DNA of 64,000 nucleotides from Xylographa opegraphella (GCA_022813865.1 JALDZX010000005.1:186001-250000); one strand, 5' to 3'; counted from the stretch's first letter, positions 6,305 through 60,933 are shown. The notes: generated by a model from the sequence alone, not told the origin. Program-made: numbers and translations.

Positions 6305-7506
6305 ATGTACTTTTCTCACGCAAGCCTCCTTGCTTTCGCCGCACTCTGCGGCGTGCTCAATGCCGCCGTGATTGCTGAACGCGCCGCCTGCAATGCCGAC
6401 AACTGCCTACGCGCCCTCAATGGCTATTCCAGCGCCGCCGCCTTTTGCAGTTCATACACCACAGCCACAAGTACAGCAACGACGGGCCTGCCAACCTTCG
6501 CTACGCTGTGCACTGGTGCGACTGTCTCGCGGCTCAGCTCGGCGTGTTCATGTTACGCAGCTACAGCAACGCCGAGCTAACAGACTACCACGACAACTTC
6601 GCTCCCTACAAGCTCTACGCCGTCCACGTGCACGGCTGTGACTGTTACCGCGACCCAAACCGAGCCAATAATGACAGTCACAGTCACTCCTGATGCCTCG
6701 ACACTCACGGCCACTGCGATAGTAACTGATACCGAAACCGAGCCAGTGATGACCGTCACAATTACTCCTGATGCTGTGACAGTCACAGTTACTCCCGATG
6801 CTTCCACAGTCACGGCCACTGCGATAGTAACTGATACCGAAACCGAGCCAGTAATGACCGTCACAGTCACCCCTGACGCTGTGACAGTCACGGCCACTCA
6901 ACCAGTCACCGTTCCAGTCACTTTGCCCGCCTCAACCGTGACCGTGACTGCGGCCGCACCCGCCGCCGCAGCGTCCGGGTACAGCTTAGGATTCGGCTTC
7001 GACCCGCTCATCGGCTATGTGTCCGACAACCTCGCAAGCTTCGCATCCGTCCAGGACCCCGCTAACGCCTACGCGGGGCAGTCCTACCTGTAAGCACCCC
7101 CGATCTCGCTCTTCCCCTCACCCCATTAGGTAGATAGATACACTAACACATCTCCAGCCTCGCCCAATTCGGCGCCTCCTCCGCCAGCGGCGACGTCACC
7201 CCACAGATCACCGTCAACGTGCAGCCCAACACCAACTACGTGGCCGACGGCTATTTCAAGAAAGGCTCCGCCGCCGGGACGTGCACGGTCGGCATCGCGG
7301 TGCTCAACGGCGCCGGCAGCGGCTACCTCAACGTCGGCACCGGCGGCTCCTACCACCTCCACACCCTCACCGCCGCCTACACCTACGACAGCACCGCTTT
7401 CAACACAGGCGCCAACACGCAGGTGTCCGTCCGCTACATTACCAGCTGCTACGGCGCCACTGGTCTCGCGGCCTACTACGACAACTTGACTCTGCATCCC
7501 GCTTGA
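6305..7506 (+). CDS. Secreted Cys-rich / Thr-Val repeat protein with C-terminal CBM4/9-like domain; interrupted by an in-frame TAA at 6578-6580
   Basis: Signal peptide MYFSHASLLAFAALCGVLNA, then CNADNCLRAL..FCSSY..SRLSSACSC domain. The same frame resumes after TAA with Thr-rich repeats. Intron 7090-7157 (gtaagc..ctaac..cag). C-terminal beta-rich domain ends YYDNLTLHPA*. Confidence 0.7.
6655..6900 (+). repeat. Intragenic coding tandem repeat (~105-nt / 35-aa unit built from VTVTVTPDA and TATAIVTDTETEP modules)
   Basis: cacggccactgcgatagtaactgataccgaaaccgagccagt occurs twice, 105 nt apart; the shorter TVTVTPDA module recurs several times. Confidence 0.85.
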
Positions 7507-38315: not shown

Positions 38316-39568
38316 TCAATTCGTTTCAGCTATTTTATCCTTCGGCCACTGTATCGCGACCTGCCACTCCTGCGGAAGTGCTCCGCTCACAGCATCGACC
38401 ACCCACCGCCCCCACGTGCCGAACCACCAGCACTCCCGACTGTCGTGCAGGATGACGCCGTAATGGGCCAGTATGGCCAGGGCCATCGGCTCCCGCCGCG
38501 CCAGCGCGACCGGAAACGCACTCGTGATCATGATGGGCCACGAGAAGGCGCGGGCTCTGCTGCTCATGGACGTGAGCTGCTGCTCGAACACGGAGAGCAG
38601 GTTGCGGATGACGGAGCCGTAGACCTCGCGCACCAGCTCGTCCTCGGTCGCCACCCGGTTCCGTTCCGCCAGGGCGTGAAGAGCACCGACGGCGTCTGTC
38701 GGCGCCGGGAGCATTGCCAGGTCTTGCTCAAAGGCGATGAGCGGGCCGAGCTTGCTCCGAGCGATCGAGCCCCTCGCGACGTCCAGCACAGCATAGATGC
38801 CTCGCATCAGCTTGAAGATGGCGAGGAGGTCTGCGATCGGGTCGGCTGGCGGTGTGCCGGACACCTGGGGCAGGGCGAAGGCGATCATGGCGGCTACGGC
38901 GGAATAAGCGAAGACGGCGGCGCTGTTCTCCTCCGTGAGGGCGCTGAGCGTCGGCCGGAAGAGGATGATGGCCATGTCCTGATGACGGACGGCGACGTCG
39001 TAGTAGAACCGTTGCTGAGAAGGATGGGAATTGGCCAGGTGGAGGGCAGTGATGGCCAGCAAGCCGTGCATCAGGAACGGGTGGGATTCGGCTTCCTGGG
39101 GGATGACGTCCTGCCAATACACATTGAACGACGTCCTCCCGGCGAGGAGTAATGAGGTCGTGAGAGCGTAGTGGCGCATCAGGCTCAAGTCCAGAAGGAA
39201 CGCGTCCGTCAACACGTGCGGTTGAGCATTGGGTGGGACTACACCAAGGGTACCAGGGGTGGATGGCGTTGACAAGCTCGCCGCGACGTCTTCTGGTTGT
39301 GCGGGATGATCATTCGGGCTGCACGATGCACCGTGCAGAGGCTCTCGTGCATTGGAGGGATCTGCGCTTTCGCCAGAGAATTCGCACCGCCGTCGCTGCT
39401 TCACACAATGGCCGCAGACGGGCCGCTTCTCGTCGCACTGTGCTTCCGCAGAGCTGATGAGCCAGGGGAGCATTCGGCAGCGGAGACACCACCTGCCTTG
39501 ATTCTCTTGCTTTTACATTGAGCGCAGCCGAAACGCGATTTGACGTGCGATTTTCGGAGTCCCGTCAT
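38316..39568 (-). CDS. Zn(II)2Cys6 transcription factor, Upc2-like family
   Basis: RKSHVKSRFGCAQCKSKRIK | intron 39438-39496 with probable GC donor | CDEKRPVCGHCVKQRRRC. Also LDLSLMRHY, PFLMHGLLAITALH, WWFGTWG. An alternative ATG lies at 39607. Confidence 0.9.
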
Positions 39569-49805: not shown

Positions 49806-52800
49806 ATGGCTCCGTCAGCTACTACCGCGCCAACGGACACCAACTGGACCCATGAGTTCGATACCGTACGACGCGAGAAGCTCTTTCGGAACCCCCCCGA
49901 AGACCGAACGCCATATCCGCTGCTCGCCGAGACCATCAGACCTCACATCGACTCCTTCAATGCCATCTTCGAGAATAATAAGCTCATCGATGCTGCCCTG
50001 AAGGATATCGGGACCAGGGTCTTCCTGCAGCCCGATGAAACACCCCAGCAGCGATCCGCCAGGGAGCAGGAAGGCCGACCTTCGCGCAAGAAAGACCGGC
50101 TGAGTATCCGGATACGGGATGTCTTCCTGGAAAAGGCAGTCTTGCCAAGCAATAACAAGTTCAGCACCAAGAATCGAGACATCTATCCCAGCGAGTGTCG
50201 AGAAAGGCACGCTAGCTACCGTGGCAAGTTGAGGGCCAGGATCGGTTATAGGATCAACAATGGAGACTGGCAGGACGCCGTGCGTGAGCTGGGACAGATT
50301 CCCATTATGCTCCGTAGCAACAAGTGCCACCTGGAGAAGTTCACGCCAGCCAAGTTGGTGGAACGGAAAGAGGAGGCTGAGGAGCTGGGTGGCTATTTCA
50401 TCATCAATGGCAACGAGAAACTCATCCGCCTCTTGATAGTCTCGAAGAGGAACTATCCTATGGCTATCATCCGAAATTCCTTCATCGGACGAGGTGCGGG
50501 TTACACCAAGTTTGGCATACAGATCAGATCTGTGCGTCCAGATCAAACTTCTCAGACGAACGTCCTTCATTATCTGAGTGACGGGAACATCACCTTCCGT
50601 TTCTCGTGGAAGAAAAATGAATATCTTGTTCCAGTCATGATGATACTCAAAGCTCTAACAGAAACTAATGACAGAGAAGTATTCGAGGGACTTGTGGGTG
50701 CCGCGGGCTCCAAAGGTGTCGAGAACACGTTCATGACAGATCGAGTTGAACTGCTCCTGCGGACATACAAAGCCTACCAACTGCACGGCAAGGCCAAGAC
50801 TCGGGCATACCTGGGTGAGAAATTCAAGACAGTACTTGATGTGCCTGAGAATATGCCCAATGAGGAAGCAGGTACCGAATTCCTTCGCAAAATTGTGCTC
50901 GTCCATTTGGGCAACGTCAACGTGACCGAAGCACAAGACGCTGATAAGTCCAAGATGCTACTATTCATGATTCGGAAATTGTACGCCCTGGTTGCGGGTG
51001 ATTGTGCGGTCGATAATCCCGATGCAGCCTCCAATCAAGAAATTCTGCTTGGAGGATTCCTGTACAGCATGATCTTGAAAGAGAAGCTGGAAGAGTGGAT
51101 CAGATCGATTGCTATAGCGCTCCGGTCTTGGTATGACAATAATGGTCGCAAGTCGTTTACGGACCCTGTGTTCCTCAAAGACTTTGGGCCAAAAATCATG
51201 AGAAGGTCAAGCGAGGCTATAGGAGGAGCTCTTGAGTACTTCATGTCTACAGGTAATTTATCTAGTCCATCGGGACTTGATCTGCAGCAGACATCAGGTT
51301 TTACCGTTGTAGCCGAGAAAATCAATTTTTTCAGATTCATCAGTCACTTTCGTATGGTGCATCGAGGAAGTTTCTTTGCTCAGCTCAAGACCACTACGGT
51401 CCGCAAACTGCTCCCAGAGAGCTGGGGCTTTCTATGTCCTGTCCACACTCCCGACGGAAGTCCCTGCGGCTTGCTGAACCATCTTGCCCATCAATGTAAA
51501 GTCACAACTCGTGATTCAGACGTGTCCAAATTGCCTGCTCTGCTTGCACAGATGGGGGTGACCTCGTCATCTTCCGCTTCTGTTGCCGACAGTGTTGTTG
51601 TACAGCTTGATGGCCGTATCCTAGGCTTCTGTCATCCCAAGCAAGCTCGCATAATTGCCGACACGCTGAGGTATTGGAAGGTGGAGGGAACACATGCGAT
51701 ACCGCTCGAACTCGAGATAGGCCATGTTCCAAATTCGAACGGTGGGCTTTATCCCGGTTTATACCTGTTTGCTCATGCGGCACGGATGATACGGCCAGTC
51801 ACATACCTTCTACTCGATAAGCAAGACTACGTCGGTCCCTTCGAGCAGCCATACATGTCCATCGCTTGCCGGCCTAATGAGCCCGAATCCAAGAACTCTA
51901 CTCATATGGAAGTCGCCCCGACCAATATCCTCTCCATCGTCGCCAACCAAACGCCCTTTTCCGACCACAATCAATCCCCCCGAAACATGTACCAATGCCA
52001 GATGGGAAAGCAAGCCATGGGAACCCCCGGTTCCGCCATCCGCTACCGCACTGACAACAAATCCTACCGTCTGCAAACCGGGCAGACCCCCATCGTCCGG
52101 CCACCACTCTTCAACGCATACGGTCTCGATAACTTCCCCAACGGCATGAATGCTGTTGTTGCCGTCATCTCGTACACTGGCTATGACATGGACGACGCCA
52201 TGATTCTCAACAAATCCGCGCACGAGCGCGGCTTCGGCCACGGAACCATCTACAAAACTAAAGTCGTGCACCTCGACGAAACCGGCAGGTCCGCTCGCTC
52301 CAAAAGAGCCATTTCCAAGCTCTTCGGCTTCGCTCCCAACTCCCGCGTCTCACCCTCCATCGCCCAGCATCTCGACCAGGACGGCCTGCCCTACATCGGC
52401 ACCATGCTCCAGGAGGGCGACGTCCTGTGCGCCTCTCACTCCGTCACCCACGACCCCGTCTCCAACACCTACATCAACCGCGACGCTATCACCACGCTCC
52501 ATAAGTACAAAGACGCCGAAACCGCCTTCGTCGAAGAGGTCCGCCTCCTCGGCGCCGAAAGCGGCGACCAGCCCTGCCAAGCCCTCTCCATCAAGCTGCG
52601 CATCCCACGCTCGCCCGTCATCGGCGACAAGTTCTCCTCGCGCCACGGGCAGAAGGGGGTGTGCTCGCAGAAGTGGCCGGCAGCCGACATGCCCTTCTCG
52701 GAGAGCGGGATCGTGCCGGACATCATCATCAACCCGCACGCGTTCCCGTCGCGGATGACGATCGGCATGTTCGTCGAGTCGCTCGCGGGCAAGGCCGGCG

Positions 52801-53465
52801 CCCTGCACGGCATCGCGCAGGACTCCTCCCCCTGGCGCTTCTCCGAGGCCTCGCCCGCGGGCGACTACTTCGGCGAGCAGCTCCGCGCCGCTGGCTACAA
52901 CTACCACGGCAACGAGCCGATGTACAGCGGCATCACGGGCCGCGAGTTCGCGGCCGACATCTACGTCGGTGTCGTCTTCTACCAGCGCCTGCGGCACATG
53001 GTCAACGACAAGTTCCAGGTCCGCACCACCGGGCCCGTCAACGCCCTCACGGGCCAGCCCATCAAGGGCCGCAGCAAGGGCGGCGGCATCCGCGTCGGCG
53101 AGATGGAGCGCGACGCCCTGCTCGCCCACGGCGCCGCCTATCTGCTGCAGGACCGCCTGCTCAACTGCAGCGACTACTGCCGCGCCTGGGTCTGCAAGGC
53201 GTGCGGCAGCTTCCTCAGCACGCAGCCGACCGTGGCGCCGGGCGGCAGGAAGGGCGCGAGAGGGACCGGCATCGTGAGGTGCAGGCGGTGCGCGCGCCCG
53301 GCGGCGGGCGGGGAGCAGAAGAGTCTCGTGTGGGAGGACGGCACGGGCGGGCGGTGGGTCGGCGGCGAAGAGACGACGGTCGTGGCCGTGCCGGGGGTGC
53401 TGCGCTACCTGGACGTGGAGCTGAGTGCGATGGGGGTGCGGATGCGCTTCAATATCGAGCCGTGA
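49806..53465 (+). CDS. RPA135: RNA polymerase I second-largest subunit (A135), intronless
   Basis: GGYFIINGNEK, VRKLLPESWGFLCPVHTPDGSPCGLLNH, SYTGYDMDDA, GDKFSSRHGQKG, GGIRVGEMERD and a C-terminal zinc site. Confidence 0.97.
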   Translation: MAPSATTAPTDTNWTHEFDTVRREKLFRNPPEDRTPYPLLAETIRPHIDSFNAIFENNKLIDAALKDIGTRVFLQPDETPQQRSAREQEGRPSRKKDRLSIRIRDVFLEKAVLPSNNKFSTKNRDIYPSECRERHASYRGKLRARIGYRINNGDWQDAVRELGQIPIMLRSNKCHLEKFTPAKLVERKEEAEELGGYFIINGNEKLIRLLIVSKRNYPMAIIRNSFIGRGAGYTKFGIQIRSVRPDQTSQTNVLHYLSDGNITFRFSWKKNEYLVPVMMILKALTETNDREVFEGLVGAAGSKGVENTFMTDRVELLLRTYKAYQLHGKAKTRAYLGEKFKTVLDVPENMPNEEAGTEFLRKIVLVHLGNVNVTEAQDADKSKMLLFMIRKLYALVAGDCAVDNPDAASNQEILLGGFLYSMILKEKLEEWIRSIAIALRSWYDNNGRKSFTDPVFLKDFGPKIMRRSSEAIGGALEYFMSTGNLSSPSGLDLQQTSGFTVVAEKINFFRFISHFRMVHRGSFFAQLKTTTVRKLLPESWGFLCPVHTPDGSPCGLLNHLAHQCKVTTRDSDVSKLPALLAQMGVTSSSSASVADSVVVQLDGRILGFCHPKQARIIADTLRYWKVEGTHAIPLELEIGHVPNSNGGLYPGLYLFAHAARMIRPVTYLLLDKQDYVGPFEQPYMSIACRPNEPESKNSTHMEVAPTNILSIVANQTPFSDHNQSPRNMYQCQMGKQAMGTPGSAIRYRTDNKSYRLQTGQTPIVRPPLFNAYGLDNFPNGMNAVVAVISYTGYDMDDAMILNKSAHERGFGHGTIYKTKVVHLDETGRSARSKRAISKLFGFAPNSRVSPSIAQHLDQDGLPYIGTMLQEGDVLCASHSVTHDPVSNTYINRDAITTLHKYKDAETAFVEEVRLLGAESGDQPCQALSIKLRIPRSPVIGDKFSSRHGQKGVCSQKWPAADMPFSESGIVPDIIINPHAFPSRMTIGMFVESLAGKAGALHGIAQDSSPWRFSEASPAGDYFGEQLRAAGYNYHGNEPMYSGITGREFAADIYVGVVFYQRLRHMVNDKFQVRTTGPVNALTGQPIKGRSKGGGIRVGEMERDALLAHGAAYLLQDRLLNCSDYCRAWVCKACGSFLSTQPTVAPGGRKGARGTGIVRCRRCARPAAGGEQKSLVWEDGTGGRWVGGEETTVVAVPGVLRYLDVELSAMGVRMRFNIEP

Positions 53466-53970: not shown

Positions 53971-55042
53971 TCAACACCCCCATTCCCACCCCCACCCTTC
54001 CTCCACAGGTGACGACGCCCCCGTCGAGGGCGAGGGCGAGTCCGTGTTTAGAGACGAGGGCGGGCCGCTGTTGAGCGGGGAGAGCGGGGAGAGCGCGTTG
54101 GTGGGGGGCGGCTGTTGCTGCGTGGCGTAGATGGTAGGGATGTGGGTGAATGCGACGAAGATGTCGATGCTCGGGTCGGTGCTGGGGGAGGGGGTTTGTG
54201 GGGGAGCAGGTCTCTCAGCTTCCTCATCGACCGGAGAAGATTTGGTGAGTGTTCCAGGCACCTGCTTCAAAGGCACATGCGCGAACCTCCGCGTCGGAGC
54301 AAGATTCCGGTTGATACTCCCCCCAGAATATCGCTCGAGCAATGGTTCCGACCCCTCCGCCTCAGCCGACCGCGTCTCCTGACAAACACGCAAACCGTGC
54401 CGGCACTATTCCAGAAGTGAGCCCGGACACCGGCAACGCGTGTTCGAGAATAAGTCTACCGCTTACAGCTTTCTTACTCTTCCTGCACACCTCACACGCG
54501 CCCTTGCCGCGCACAATCGCGACCTCGGCTTTCCGCACAGGACTGTAGGACCGTCGTTTCGGGGCAACGGCCGGCTTCCCCGTCTCGAGCGAGAAGCATG
54601 ATTGGCCAGGGTATACGGTTCGAGAGCGAGACACCCATGGTCGCGAAGCGCGGTCGGGGAGGTTGAAGATACATTTCTCCACTAAACCCATTGACTGTTC
54701 TTGGACGCAAACGCTATCATCAGGGTTGCGAAGTTTGTGTGACGGATTTCTCACTGCGCCGGAGCTGTTTGTCTCCAAACCGCCGCCCTGAAAACCGCCA
54801 TTTCCCCCAACTGGCGGAGGTAGAGTGCCAGCGCTGTCGGTTAACGCCTCTGAAGACAGATGCGGACATAAAGGGCGCTGCAACCGAACATCCCGAACCG
54901 TGGGCTCCGGCAAGCTGAACGAAATGTCTTGTGAGTAACCATCTTGCCGATGATTACAGACCGAGCAGAAGTCGAAGATTTCTTGATTATAAGGTCCATC
55001 TCCACAAGAAGCGCAATACCAGAAGAGACGCGCGGAACTCAT
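53971..55042 (-). CDS. Putative zinc-finger regulator, paralogue B (WYCxxC..CxxC finger plus CxxC-x6-CxH motif), 2 exons
   Basis: MSSARLFWYCASCGDGPYNQEIFDFCSVCNHR..FSLETGKPAVAPKRR..RGKGACEVCRKSKKA | intron 54406-54466 | CRHGLRVC.. continuing into ORF 53971-54393. Confidence 0.75.
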
Positions 55043-55504
55043 AGTCGCGATGCCGCGTGAAGGGTCATGCATAGAATAGTTTGCGGCGCAATAAAACAAG
55101 AACTCATAACGATGCTTAATGTCACGAAGTGCGAGTAAGATTTCAATCATAGAAACTGAAGAACGACTGGAACTCTCATTATTATTATGTCAATGCGGCC
55201 TGACCGAGGTTCACCGATTCCCAAAAAGGAAATGGCGCATTCGTCCAATCATAATAATCCCCGATCGATTAGTTTCTCATCACTTCGCCGGGACGGTATC
55301 CACAGAGCGATTGGTTGAAATCCCTGAGACAAGATACATAGCATATTCAGGAGCATTTCCGAAAAGTCGTGAAGTAATTAATGAGACACAATTGGATTCA
55401 TAACGCAGACCAAGTCTATTAATACAAAATGAACCTCAATCTTGGCGGAAACGAAGATTGAGTCTATGTTGGCGCGAAGAGTAATGAGAAGCTTTGATGA
55501 GGTT

Positions 55505-57446
55505 TTACTGCGCGGTATACTCTTTACCACTGTTGTCCGATGGAGGTGTCAGGCTTGAGCCGCTAGTTGAATTCCCACTCTCCACGGAGAAACCTGAATG
55601 ACAGGGGACCTTCCGGCCAGCTTCCCAACTCAGATCAACATCCATCTCAGCAGACTTCTCGATATCATCATTGTCCAGCCATGGAAAGTCGCCGTAAAGA
55701 TTGAGGTCCCCAGGACCATACGGTTCCAGAAGCTCAATATCCGGTGTACTTTGTGACTGCTGTCGCGTTGCGATAGCCATTGAAAATGCCTGTCCCGGCA
55801 CAGTCGCCGGATTTGCTGGCGTATATGCTCCATACCATTGTGAGTAATCTTCGTCGAGTGTAACCTGGCTCTCAGTAGTTGTGTGGATTTCTCGCACCTG
55901 GTGACACTGAATATCCCGCGAGCTCTGAGGCGACTGTTCAGGACAGATAGCCCATGCGGAATCGCTCGGTCCCGTATCAGGAATGCCCATTAACATCGGT
56001 GTGTTCGCGGCTTGCGAGGCGACGTATTGCAACGGGTTGTGATCGTCGATACCTCTATTACCAGCTGTTCTTGTTTGAGAAAAACTTGGAGAAGCAGTAT
56101 GAGGATCGTGCTCGTGACTCGCATTATTGGCAATTGGCACCAACAATTGGTCCGCGCTGGTTCGTGTACCATTACACGGAGTGGTGTGTGTATTTCTGGC
56201 GTGCTCGCTGTTTGCAATCTCGGCCCTTCCAAGAAGATCGGGATAGTGAGGTCGGATTGGAAGAAAATGATCAAATTGATCGACATCCAGCGCGCGGGTA
56301 CCGTGGCCCAGTGTTGTTGCTATTTGACTCTCAGGCAGTACTTCCCGAGACAAGCTCGAACCCACCGGTATGCTTGGACCAGAAGTAGGCGACGTGGTAA
56401 GAGGGTCGACTCTGATACGTGTATAGTTGGACGTAGGAAGCTTCCGGGCTCTTCTGTCTCCGTACCGAATGCTCGATGTTCTCCGGTTCGGGGAGGTCGT
56501 GGTCTTTGTTTCTTCCGAAACACTTTCTTCGCCGGTGGAAATACTGTCAATCTCGTGTCTCCTACGCCTCGTTGGGTAGTCGAAAGCGGTTCGGTTTCGA
56601 GCACTTGCTATCGTCGTATCTTCTTGCTCCCGTAAGCGATGGAGGCACTTTGCTATTCAGTTAGCAACTGAATACTCTATGCGCCTGCAGCACGAGGCAA
56701 GTCTTGCTTACCTTCTTTTTCCGTGCTCTACACGAATCGCAAGCCCCTTTTCGCCTTGTATATGCTGTTTCAGACTTGCTTTTGGGGCTTAAAGGTCGTC
56801 TTGAAGGAGCTATTGCGGGCTCACCGGTCTCCAACGAGAAGCTGTGTTCACCAGGAAAGCGAATGCGCGCTGGAAAAATGATAATCTCTTCATATCTTGT
56901 ACTATAGCCAGTATTTTCCGGATGGAAAAGGTATCTTTGTAGCTGTGCTATTTTGTCCTCCGACCCAATGCGAAGAATGTTAGGTTCACACAAAGAATCG
57001 TCTTTCATTATCGGATTGATCGATGAGACGAGGCTGCTTTTGTCGCTCAAAGCAGAAGCAGGAAGTGTCTTGGGATTTCTGGTTTCAGGAACATTCAGAT
57101 TTGAGCTCGGTATGGTCGCAACGGATTTAACAATATCCACGTTTTCGTATTCTTCCGAAAGAGCAATGATATCCTTTGACGTAGGTATGCTAGGTTGTTC
57201 CATGGTGTTGTCGTCGTTTTTGATGTTATCTCGACTCGAAGGCTGTACCATACTTGCAGACTCGATGGTTCGTGAACTAAGGGTACTTTTCGGCGATGGT
57301 TCTCGCCAGCGGTCCTGGAGGTAAAAAATTTCCCCTCTTGTGTTGTGACTCCGCCGGCGATGACAAACATTACAATGGTCATTAAGGACTGCAGAGTGAG
57401 GGCCGTAGTCACACCATTCGCAGTACCAATGCACTCCTCGACGCAT
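55505..57446 (-). CDS. Putative zinc-finger regulator, paralogue A, 2 exons
   Basis: MRRGVHWYCEWCDYGPHSAVLNDHCNVCHRR..FSLETGEPAIAPSRR..RRKGACDSCRARKKK | intron 56648-56711 | CLHRL.. in frame with ORF 55505-56365 (acidic tail). Confidence 0.75.
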
Positions 57447-58636: not shown

Positions 58637-60933
58637 ATGGGATCCGTTTCTGATGATGAGCTGGAGTACCTATCCCCTTCTTTCGATCCGGCCAAACTGA
58701 CAGTACCGAAAATCCGAGCCATCTTCGTGTCTCACGATATTCCATATCCTGCGTCTGCGAAGAAACCTGAGCTTATCGAGATCTTCAACCAACAGCTCGT
58801 CCCTAAATCGCGAACGATCTTGGCAGCCCGGTCTCGAATCTCAAGGACAGCCAGACGCATTGTTGATATGCCAAGTAGTGAGGAGAGTACGGTCAGTGGG
58901 GATACGGATGACACAGCGACGATGCCTCCACCACCGGAGCCCAGCACCTCGAGGAAAAGGAGATCAAGCACGCGTGCATCTACTGCAGACAGCGCGGAGA
59001 AGTATCCGGTTTCGACAAGAACGTCAAGCAGTCGAAAGAGTGCTGTAAAACACCCAAGAGCCTCAGATACTGAGGTCGACCCAGATACTGGTTTAGAGCA
59101 ACCAGTAGTCCGCAAAAGCCGCAAGAGTAATGTCACGCCAACGGTCAAGGTTGAAGAAGTCGAGAATCCAGCACGACGGACTTCCAGGCCACCTCTAGAA
59201 GCAAGTCCATTCAGCGACGAGAATCCTTTCCAAAAAGGCAGCTCGCCGTTATATTCGGAAGAGAAGAGGCGGAAAAGTGGAGGAACAAGTACTGATAAGA
59301 GAAAAAGCTCATCACGGCGAAGAACCATAGAGCCGAAAAGCAGCACAGAAACACCTGTGCCAAAACATCAAGATGGAACAGTGGTGCCATCGTCAGATAC
59401 CTTTAAAGCCCCTGTCGCGAAATATAAACCCCGGAAAGTGAATCCTGAACCGGTGGAAACCATCGAAGCAGGCGAGGAATTCACCGCCGAAGAGCAGCTC
59501 TCCCTAGAGGCCGAAAGAGCCGCCAACGGTGAGCAGGACCTCCTTCCTCCTCGGCGCATCAGTCGCTCCAAGCGCTCCACCAACGGCTTCCGCTCCGCCC
59601 CTTGGATCGTCCTCACTACGATCCTCGCTGGCTACGCTGCTTGGTATCGCAAAGAGAAGATTGAAGTCGGCTACTGCGGCATCGGCCAGTCCACTTTAGA
59701 CGGTCCCGTCGCTGAATTGCCCACTTGGGCTGCTATCCTGCAACCCCAATGCGAGCTATGCCCTAATAACGCATTTTGCTCTGCGAACATGGAGGTAGTA
59801 TGTGACAGCAAGTTCGTCCTCAAGCCGCACCCGCTTTCCCTCGGCGGATTGATTCCCTTAGCCCCAACATGCGAGCCGGACGGCGACAAGGGCCGCAAGA
59901 TCAAAGCCGTCGCCGACAAAGCCATCAACGTGCTCCGCGAACGTCGTGCCCAATGGGAATGCGACACCGTTATCGAGAAAGACGGCACGCCCGCCACCGC
60001 AGTCGAGATCAGCGAACCGGCCTTGAAAGCAGAAGTAAGCACCAAGCGCCGCAAAGGCATGACGGACGCGGAATTCGAAAAGCTCTGGGAAGACGCCATC
60101 GGCGAGATCCTCAGTCGCGAGGAAGTCACCGACTCCGGCGCCGACGGAAACGCGTACGTCCCCCCTCCCTATTTCCTCTCACCACCCATCCACCGTCTAC
60201 CGCACCCTTTTCTAACTCGCTCCTCACTAACCAGCTCCCCCCTCCGCCCTACAGAAGCCCTTCCCACAACGCGCACCCTCACCGTCTTGCGTCCTCCTCC
60301 CTCGCTCGCCTCCCCCTCACCTGCGCCCTCCGCCGCCGCACGCTCCGCACGCTGGCGCGCCATCGTCTCCAGCTTGGCCTTCTAACCGGCCTCACCACGC
60401 TCGCCCTCTACCTCCGCTCCCGCCTCCTGCGGCACCGCGCCGACGAGGCGCGCATCCCCGCGCTCGTGGCCTCGACGCTCGACCGGCTCGCCACGCAGGC
60501 GGTGCTGCACGCGCGCGGCGCGCAACCGGAGCCCTTCATCAGCGCCGGCCAGATGCGCGACGACGTGCTGCGCGACGAGTTCTCCATCCAGCGCCGCGAC
60601 GCCATCTGGAACAAGGTCCGGGCCGTCGTCGAAACGAACGCCAACGTGCGCGCGAGTGTCAGGGAGGGCCGCCTCGGCGAGGTCAGTCGTGTCTGGGAGT
60701 GGATCGGCAGCATCATGGCGCAGGAGGAGCGGCTGGACGCGGAGAGACGCGGGAATGATTGGCGCGCTGGCGACGCCGCTGCGAGGTATGGCTATGGGCA
60801 CGATACGGCGACGGAGAGGGAGAGGGAAGCGCCGCGCCCGGAGTGCATTGGTGCCGCGAGGCGGTGGGGGGAGGACACCCCCGAGGGGGAGGGCAATCGC
60901 AGGAGGTGGGATGAGGGCCTCTCGGTGGTGTGA
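58637..60933 (+). CDS. SRC1: Inner nuclear membrane LEM-like protein Src1/Heh1 (HeH + MSC domains), 2 exons
   Basis: YLSPSFDPAKLTVPKIRAIFVSHDIPYPASAKKPELI (HeH), FSDENPFQKG, WYRKEKIEVGYCG, PTCEPD, intron ~60154-60254, VETNANVRASVRE..VWEWIG. Confidence 0.92.

What the first reader, a model, noticed from the sequence alone, without database searches (positions are those of the whole stretch)
53971..57446. Tandem paralogue pair with an unusual two-module zinc architecture
Seen: two adjacent same-strand genes share (i) N-terminal WYCxxCxxGP-x8-CxxC followed by H, (ii) a conserved block [FY]PGxxxFSLETGxPAxAPxRRxxSP, (iii) a basic motif RxKGACxxCRxxKKx|CxH with an intron at the same codon position. 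Linkers and tails show no obvious similarity. Established: Gal4-type clusters need six Cys (CxxCx6Cx5-12CxxCx6-8C), and this intron position matches the K|C intron in the two normal Zn2Cys6 genes in this window. Inference: these are 'half-cluster' C3H derivatives of Zn2Cys6 fused to a RanBP2-like zinc ribbon, i.e. a probably uncharacterised regulator family retained after an old duplication.
Basis: partly seen in the sequence, partly recalled or inferred. Interest (0 to 1): 0.75.

Follow-up and report, generated by a model that had tools for sequence, protein, structure and literature searches.

The report
Half zinc-cluster regulators in lichen fungi
Two neighbouring genes of a lichen fungus belong to an unannotated family of probable gene regulators that keep only the DNA-reading half of the classic fungal six-cysteine zinc cluster, close it with a histidine, and sit as old tandem copies in several related lichens.

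Summary
Genes A (336 aa) and B (625 aa) are intact paralogues of Xylographa opegraphella sharing an N-terminal four-cysteine ribbon and a basic core ending C-x2-C-x6|C-x-H, split by a phase-0 intron where two ordinary Zn2Cys6 genes of the window have theirs. No acceptor tried completes a six-cysteine cluster (0 of 64 for A, 0 of 195 for B; both controls do). About 50 relatives were found. All 15 named proteins come from Ostropomycetidae lichens; five of nine named species hold 2-3 copies with close locus tags; the A/B split predates the genus Xylographa. None of 40 members scanned reaches a Pfam cut-off. The position that reads the CGG guanine in Gal4-type proteins is Lys, His or Arg in 48 of 48. 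Best reading: DNA-binding regulators in which the first zinc site of the Gal4 cluster survives as a mononuclear Cys3His knuckle, aided by a new upstream hairpin and basic helix. Zinc binding, DNA binding and expression are inferred, not shown; fold searches did not recover Gal4-type structures. Corrections: the His after the ribbon is not conserved, the ribbon fails the RanBP2 consensus, and the database model of B omits it. New variant of a known kind.

The parts
56712..57446 (-). Gene B exon 1 (245 codons): ribbon, linker, L-x-x-Y-L-F helix, hairpin block, basic helix, C-x2-C-x6
   Evidence: N-terminal 33 residues 19/33 identical to the X. soralifera orthologue P0059; database model P0005 starts 65 codons later
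57363..57428 (-). Gene B N-terminal ribbon W-Y-C-x2-C-x2-G-P-x8-C-x2-C
56712..56954 (-). Gene B conserved core: L-x-x-Y-L-F helix, PG...FSLETGEPA hairpin, basic helix, Cys1 (56741) and Cys2
   Evidence: (pLDDT 81-94 over model residues 141-180, 82 over 101-110)
56648..56711 (-). Gene B intron, 64 nt, phase 0, GTAAGC donor, CTAAC branch site, AAG acceptor (competing TAG 5 nt upstream)
   Evidence: same junction in database protein P0005 and in the models of three orthologues
55505..56647 (-). Gene B exon 2: Cys3-Leu-His, short helix-like segment, long Ser/Thr/Pro-rich tail with an acidic end
   Evidence: 11 D+E, 4 K+R in the last 60 residues; low pLDDT
54467..55042 (-). Gene A exon 1 (192 codons): ribbon, linker, core, C-x2-C-x6
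   Evidence: matches database protein P0022
54956..55021 (-). Gene A N-terminal ribbon
   Evidence: pLDDT 92-94 over residues 11-30; weak NZF/RanBP2-type fold matches
54467..54622 (-). Gene A conserved core: hairpin block, basic helix, Cys1 (54496) and Cys2
   Evidence: (pLDDT 80-90 over residues 151-190)
54406..54466 (-). Gene A intron, 61 nt, phase 0, GTAAGC donor, CTCAC branch site, TAG acceptor
53971..54405 (-). Gene A exon 2: Cys3-Arg-His, predicted helix, Pro/Ser-rich tail

Best explanation
A and B are nuclear, sequence-specific DNA-binding regulators of a family descended from a Zn2Cys6 (Gal4-type) gene that lost the second half of the cluster. Steps. (1) Shown: the spliced proteins carry C-x2-C-x6-C-x-H and no further CxxC. 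(2) Inferred: Cys1, Cys2 and Cys3, which bind the first zinc in solved clusters, still bind one zinc, and the invariant His replaces Cys4, giving a mononuclear Cys3His knuckle. (3) Inferred: the short helix between Cys2 and Cys3 enters the major groove and reads a guanine through the Lys/His at Cys1+7, as in Gal4-type proteins. (4) Inferred: the family's own hairpin and Arg-rich helix just upstream extend the DNA contact and make up for the lost second zinc site. (5) Inferred, weakly: the disordered tails act as activation regions, and the N-terminal four-Cys ribbon is an optional partner-binding module. (6) Shown: the copies arose by tandem duplication before Xylographa split from Lambiella and have been kept since, with linkers and tails diverging, which suggests different partners or expression for similar DNA sites.
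For: No six-Cys splice product in A (0 of 64 acceptors), B (0 of 195) or loci L001, L002, L003, L005 (0 of 123, 27, 123, 132), against 1 of 57 and 1 of 50 for the two control genes. Of 17 family models of 330 aa or more, 13 read C-x2-C-x6-C-x-H, 1 reads C-x2-C-x8-C-x-H, 2 run through the intron into C-P-H, 1 has lost the CxxC, 0 have six Cys. Pfam Zn_clus aligns B residues 170-181 (P0005) to profile positions 2-13 of 39 (E 0.33, weak) and the second exons of the two control genes to positions 13-33/34, so the intron cuts the profile at the same place. PMC6265462 (passages; Discussion): Zn1 of Pho7 is held by Cys292, 295, 302 and 308, the proximal helix enters the major groove, and the guanine-reading residue (Pho7 Asn299, seven after Cys1; Gal4 Lys18) is Lys in Ppr1, Hap1, Leu3, AlcR and His in Put3; here it is Lys 35, His 11, Arg 2 of 48. 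A C-x-H pair closing a one-zinc Cys3His site has precedent in AMT1/MAC1 (PMC9472267, passages). Core net charge +10 and +8. AlphaFold2 gives the same confident core for A and B: hairpin, 13-residue helix, short helix. The nearest named Atlas cluster is 90% PF00172 (score 0.85, a lead only). Core identity to orthologues 40-46 of 55, above linkers (29-50%) and tails (41-55%); core dN/dS 0.16 and 0.14, Fisher p 8e-7 and 7e-8.
Against: No significant match ties the core to Zn2Cys6: 1 of 40 members hits Zn_clus, at E 0.33; profile searches of the PDB give nothing or chance hits. An incomplete four-Cys Zn2Cys6 domain of Trichoderma ACE3 was reported unable to bind DNA (PMC7412840, passages), so half clusters are not functional by default; that variant lacks the first two Cys, the opposite half. 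Two family members (P0024, Icmadophila 005649; P0026) have lost the CxxC but keep the hairpin and basic helix. Between the close loci L001 and L002 the core is not measurably constrained (4 synonymous, 9 non-synonymous changes, dN/dS 0.79, p 0.46; 0.53 with wider bounds; whole gene 0.44). Two of five metagenome loci (L003, L005) have no in-frame ATG before the core. The AlphaFold models contain no zinc and their ligand geometry could not be inspected. B needs an AAG acceptor that no read confirms.
Confidence: 0.6

Rival explanations
1. The proteins are nuclear but not sequence-specific DNA binders. The basic helix is an import signal or binds nucleic acid or chromatin without specificity, the zinc knuckle is structural, and the proteins work as co-regulators through partners, as proposed for the partial copper-fist protein Cuf2.
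For: Two members have lost the CxxC yet keep the rest of the core. Truncated ACE3 cluster does not bind DNA (PMC7412840 passages). PMC4795683 (passages) argues that Cuf2, with a partial DNA-binding domain, needs a partner. The ribbon resembles NZF/RanBP2 fingers, which bind proteins or RNA.
Against: The Lys/His/Arg choice at Cys1+7 in 48 of 48 matches the base-reading residue types of solved clusters; an Arg five residues before Cys1 is present in 46 of 47 aligned sequences and several helix positions are fixed, more than an import signal needs.
Confidence: 0.22
2. The Cys3His knuckle did not come from Zn2Cys6; it arose from a copper-fist-type zinc module (C-x2-C-x8-C-x-H) or independently, and the shared spacing is convergence.
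For: The closing C-x-H is the AMT1/MAC1 pattern (PMC9472267). One Icmadophila paralogue (P0078) has exactly C-x2-C-x8-C-x-H. No significant Zn_clus or structural match.
Against: No member of 40 hits a copper-fist Pfam model at E up to 1. The x6 spacing is the rule (13 of 14 spliced models with the motif). The intron falls where the two control Zn2Cys6 genes have theirs. The (K/R)GRP motif that follows copper-fist modules (PMC4795683) is not seen after the His. The motif is internal, not in the first 40 residues.
Confidence: 0.1
3. Gene B, or the pair, is decaying: B is mostly spliced at the upstream TAG into a truncated product, and the family is dispensable.
For: A canonical TAG lies 5 nt before the AAG. 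ATG-less versions in two other organisms. A is 125-190 residues shorter than its two Xylographa orthologues.
Against: B exon 2 is open for 380 codons and 41-55% identical to three orthologues. The branch site lies 13 nt from the AAG but 8 nt from the TAG, against 12, 10 and 20 nt in the three other introns measured. Core identity is high in all orthologue pairs.
Confidence: 0.07
4. Hidden or alternative splicing restores a normal six-Cys Zn2Cys6 domain, so these are ordinary transcription factors.
For: Intron position as in ordinary Zn2Cys6 genes; ACE3 shows that clusters split by long introns get mis-annotated.
Against: 0 of 64 and 0 of 195 acceptors complete a cluster, and the only CxxC motifs in any minus-strand frame between the B donor and RPA2 are those of gene A itself plus one that spans a stop codon.
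Confidence: 0.01

Closest known systems
Zn(II)2Cys6 binuclear cluster regulators (Gal4, Pho7, Put3, AlcR; Pfam PF00172)
   Same: C-x2-C-x6-C spacing, basic residues between Cys2 and Cys3, Lys/His at the guanine-reading position, phase-0 intron before Cys3 as in two window genes, long disordered tail.
   Different: Cys4-Cys6 absent; invariant His two residues after Cys3; extra upstream helix, hairpin and basic helix; an N-terminal four-Cys ribbon; no Fungal_trans domain or other Pfam match.
Copper-fist zinc module (AMT1, MAC1, Ace1, Cuf2)
   Same: Fungal regulator with one zinc held by three Cys and a His, ending in C-x-H (PMC9472267 passages).
   Different: Spacing x6 instead of x8 in 13 of 14 spliced models; internal position; no (K/R)GRP motif and no copper-binding Cys pairs after it; no Pfam hit.
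RanBP2/NZF-type zinc fingers (Npl4 NZF, RBM5, ZRANB2, TAB2)
   Same: W-x-C-x2-C...C-x2-C pattern; predicted ribbon aligns with 1q5w_A at Z 3.6, rmsd 1.4 over 31 residues, and with 2lk1 and 7e62 at Z 3.3.
   Different: 12 residues between Cys2 and Cys3 instead of 10; the consensus Asn is Pro in 25 of 27; fixed G-P; Z-scores are low and tied with ribosomal and ESCRT ribbons.
Unnamed 54-58 residue Ascomycota clusters in the ESM Atlas
   Same: Nearest neighbours of the ribbon by features, score 0.82-0.83.
   Different: Stand-alone small proteins; scores are within the range of shuffled queries, so a lead only.

Membership tests
Zn2Cys6 binuclear cluster | Six Cys in the pattern C-x2-C-x6-C-x(5-12)-C-x2-C-x(6-8)-C | tested here: not met
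   0 of 64 and 0 of 195 acceptors; 0 of 17 long models
Zn2Cys6 binuclear cluster | First-half spacing C-x2-C-x6-C | tested here: met
   A, B and 13 of 14 spliced models with the motif
Zn2Cys6 binuclear cluster | Guanine-reading Lys/His/Asn seven residues after Cys1 | tested here: met
   K35, H11, R2 of 48; position taken from PMC6265462
Zn2Cys6 binuclear cluster | Pfam PF00172 at the curated cut-off (21 bits) | tested here: not met
   best 11.5 bits, 1 of 40 members
Zn2Cys6 binuclear cluster | Fold of the recognition helix superimposes on Gal4/Pho7 | tested here: inconclusive
   not among listed rows; domain small and models long
Zn2Cys6 binuclear cluster | Two zinc ions per domain; binding to CGG triplets | not testable with these tools
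   needs protein biochemistry
Copper-fist zinc module | C-x2-C-x8-C-x-H | tested here: not met
   A and B have x6; 1 of 14 spliced relatives has x8
Copper-fist zinc module | N-terminal 40-residue segment with (K/R)GRP motif | tested here: not met
   motif internal, no GRP after the His
Copper-fist zinc module | Cys3His coordination of one zinc | not testable with these tools
   ligand set present in sequence; metal binding not measured
RanBP2-type zinc finger | W-X-C-X(2,4)-C-X3-N-X6-C-X2-C | tested here: not met
   spacer 12, Asn replaced by Pro in 25 of 27; no zf-RanBP Pfam hit in 40 members
RanBP2-type zinc finger | Two-hairpin zinc ribbon fold | tested here: inconclusive
   Z 3.1-3.6, rmsd 1.4-2.5 over about 30 residues, tied with unrelated ribbons

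The most novel reading that the evidence does not exclude
The family defines a new DNA-binding domain: the recognition half of the Gal4 cluster, rebuilt as a one-zinc Cys3His knuckle and joined to a hairpin and basic helix of its own. It escapes Pfam-based transcription-factor inventories and has been held as a two-to-three-gene tandem array across three orders of Ostropomycetidae lichens, where it may govern a lineage-specific programme of development or symbiosis.
Probability: 0.4. Interest if true: 0.72.

Novelty: new variant of a known kind. Interest (0 to 1): 0.52.

Why it matters
The six-cysteine cluster is treated as an indivisible two-zinc unit, and sequences with fewer cysteines are usually read as annotation errors or dead proteins. 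A conserved family that keeps the DNA-reading half and adds a new histidine ligand would show a natural route from a binuclear cluster to a mononuclear finger, and it is small enough (about 60-90 residues) to test directly. It also points to regulators that domain-based counts miss in lichen genomes. The biological role is unknown, which caps the present interest.

Tried and rejected
No genome was held for the window, so copy number elsewhere in this genome is unchecked. No RNA holder was listed; this says nothing on expression. A homodimer prediction of the A core with zinc gave no answer. Foldseek gave no match at E 0.001 for either model; VIA-align listed only generic helices for the A core and nothing at Z 2 or more for the 560-residue B model; these blanks do not exclude a Gal4-like helix. 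PDB profile searches: 0 hits and 7 chance-level hits at E 0.4-1.9. A whole-protein profile search returned only 5 known members. Two of the 40 hits (P0032, P0044) were repeat proteins without the motifs and were dropped. A remnant third copy in the window was sought by HMM and tblastn and not found. Synteny with RPA2/SRC1 was absent in the three long metagenome loci. Paper searches that found no description of this family: (one search returned only plant gene-family papers); the library lacks most subscription journals, and no supplements were read. Earlier findings: nothing by sequence or place; three unrelated notes by words.

Full report
Setting. The window is fungal. The spliced product of gene B is in the protein collection as MMC26_001086 and that of gene A as MMC26_001085 of Xylographa opegraphella, both 'hypothetical protein'. 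The pair lies between RPA2 (49806-53465, +, Pfam Rpa2-specific domain) and a HeH/MSC (Src1-type) gene starting at 58637. No genome was held.

Observation. B has two exons (57446-56712, 56647-55505; 625 aa) and A has two (55042-54467, 54405-53971; 336 aa), about 460 bp apart on the minus strand. Similarity is confined to the ribbon and the core, each above all 2000 shuffles, while linker and tail score like shuffles. The database model of B lacks the first 65 codons, and so the ribbon; the X. soralifera orthologue includes it and matches at 19 of 33 residues, which supports the upstream ATG. B needs an AAG acceptor; the TAG 5 nt upstream sits only 8 nt from the branch site, against 10-20 nt in three other introns. 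No RNA run was listed, so both junctions are predictions, backed by orthologues.

No six-cysteine cluster. Every AG up to 1 kb (A) or 3.2 kb (B) downstream of the donor was tried: 0 of 64 and 0 of 195 complete a cluster, whereas the two control genes each do (1 of 57, 1 of 50). In four related loci the only matching product is again C-x-H (L001 and L003 are near-identical versions of one locus; L004 ends before the acceptor).

The family. phmmer over 1.84 billion representatives with the 81-residue B core gave 40 hits at E 0.001, 38 of them family members. A core profile gave 32 hits among 8000 scored candidates, 14 new. For counting I kept 51 sequences, dropping the four window fragments, the two spurious hits, near-identical cluster members and three fragments that duplicate others. 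Forty-eight matched the core pattern; two have lost the CxxC; one has it but missed the pattern. Of 17 models of 330 aa or more, none has six Cys. Most shorter members are gene calls that run into the intron, and they break off at the same position. The ribbon was found in 31 of 51; many of the other 20 may be short gene calls, but some look like real losses. The 15 named proteins come from nine species in Xylographa, Lambiella, Trapelia, Icmadophila and Circinaria; the five species looked up, one per genus, are all Ostropomycetidae, in three orders. Names were looked up for 30 proteins; most other members are unnamed metagenome proteins, so the true range is open, and both searches have limited reach. 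From memory, not tested: other filamentous ascomycetes have hypothetical proteins with a basic helix before C-x2-C-x6-C, so deeper relatives are likely; two unnamed Atlas clusters at 0.83 are a lead in that direction.

Tandem arrays and age. Five of the nine named species show two or three copies on one contig with close locus tags: X. opegraphella 1085/1086, X. trunciseda 889/890, X. bjoerkii 8573/8575, Lambiella 2018/2020, Icmadophila 5649/5650/5653. Three pairs of unnamed proteins share a longest-contig length, which suggests more arrays. The three long metagenome loci hold one copy within the DNA fetched. In core trees, A groups with X. vitiligo 2637, X. bjoerkii 8575 and then Lambiella 2020; B groups with X. 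soralifera 7996, X. trunciseda 889 and X. bjoerkii 8573; X. trunciseda 890 is a third type. A clade of A plus B is rejected (p-AU 8e-5), as is a clade of all Xylographa copies (9e-5; 1e-3 without the third type); the groups were named after I had seen the larger tree, so these p-values are generous. The duplication therefore predates the genus. The locus tags fit an older three-gene order B, third type, A, with the middle gene lost here; this is inference from numbering only, and no remnant was found.

Selection. Between Xylographa orthologues the core is 40-46 of 55 identical, the ribbon 19-24 of 33-34 where annotated, linkers 29-50% and tails 41-55%. Codon counts were possible only for metagenome loci: core dN/dS 0.16 and 0.14 for L001 against L004/L005 (one comparison in effect, as these two are identical in the core), but 0.79 (4 and 9 changes, not significant) for the close pair L001/L002, whose whole gene gives 0.44. 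The ribbon showed no significant constraint in these pairs (0.27, p 0.07; 0.73, p 0.37). These are fast-evolving genes with a conserved core.

Structure. AlphaFold2 models of A and B each show a confident core (hairpin, 13-residue basic helix, short helix after Cys1) amid disorder; A also has a confident ribbon and a helix after the His. The ribbon aligns weakly with NZF/RanBP2 fingers but fails their consensus (PMC7154859 passages). Fold and profile searches did not place the core. Pfam names none of 40 members; the best Zn_clus score covers exactly profile positions 2-13.

Mechanism. In Pho7 the first zinc is held by Cys1-Cys4 and the helix between Cys2 and Cys3 enters the major groove; the residue seven after Cys1 reads the second guanine of CGG and is Lys, His or Asn in solved structures (PMC6265462, passages and Discussion). 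This family keeps Cys1-Cys3, has Lys, His or Arg at that position in 48 of 48, and has a His two residues after Cys3 in every spliced model that keeps the cysteines. A closing C-x-H holds zinc in AMT1/MAC1 (PMC9472267 passages). The simplest reading is a one-zinc Cys3His knuckle that preserves the recognition helix, with the upstream hairpin and Arg-rich helix adding contacts, much as Pho7 and AlcR use flanking segments. Sequence, splicing pattern, conservation and age are shown; zinc binding, DNA binding, nuclear location and activation are inferred. Against it stand the non-binding four-Cys ACE3 variant (PMC7412840 passages), two members without the CxxC, and ATG-less versions in two other organisms.

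Membership and novelty. It probably works like a Zn2Cys6 regulator but is not a member: the six-Cys feature was tested and not met. It is neither a copper-fist nor a consensus RanBP2 protein. Six paper searches found no description, within a library that lacks most subscription journals. Verdict: real, apparently undescribed, a new variant of a known kind; interest 0.52, limited by the lack of any functional link.

Noticed in passing
L003:9957-10022 against L001:9920-10010; L005:9600-9720 against L004:470-585: In two different unnamed organisms one version of the gene is intact and another lacks the start codon: about 82 bp deleted in L003, and the sequence 5' of the ribbon's middle replaced by unrelated sequence in L005. 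Neither has an in-frame ATG before the core. Could be null alleles or assembly artefacts.
   Followed up: partly
P0024 (Icmadophila 005649) and P0026: Paralogues that keep the hairpin and basic helix but have lost the whole cysteine motif.
   Followed up: partly
P0078 (Icmadophila 005653): Paralogue with C-x2-C-x8-C-x-H, the copper-fist spacing, by a two-residue insertion before the intron.
   Followed up: partly
window 57252-57446 (-): The database model MMC26_001086 starts 65 codons downstream and omits the ribbon; the models of the X. trunciseda and X. bjoerkii orthologues also start after it.
   Followed up: yes
window 39496-39438 (-): The control Zn2Cys6 gene at 39526 appears to use a GC donor (GCAGGT) for its 59-nt intron.
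   Followed up: partly
L003:16054-20712 and L005:15317-20301: The two loci share two flanking genes at 71-81% DNA identity, inverted relative to the family gene; one looks like HMG-CoA synthase (recalled from its sequence, not tested).
   Followed up: no
L001/L003:4900-5900: An internally repeated stretch that differs in length between the two versions, inside a long ORF with a P-loop-like motif.
   Followed up: no
window 6581-7090 (+): ORF with repeated Thr/Val-rich units.
   Followed up: no
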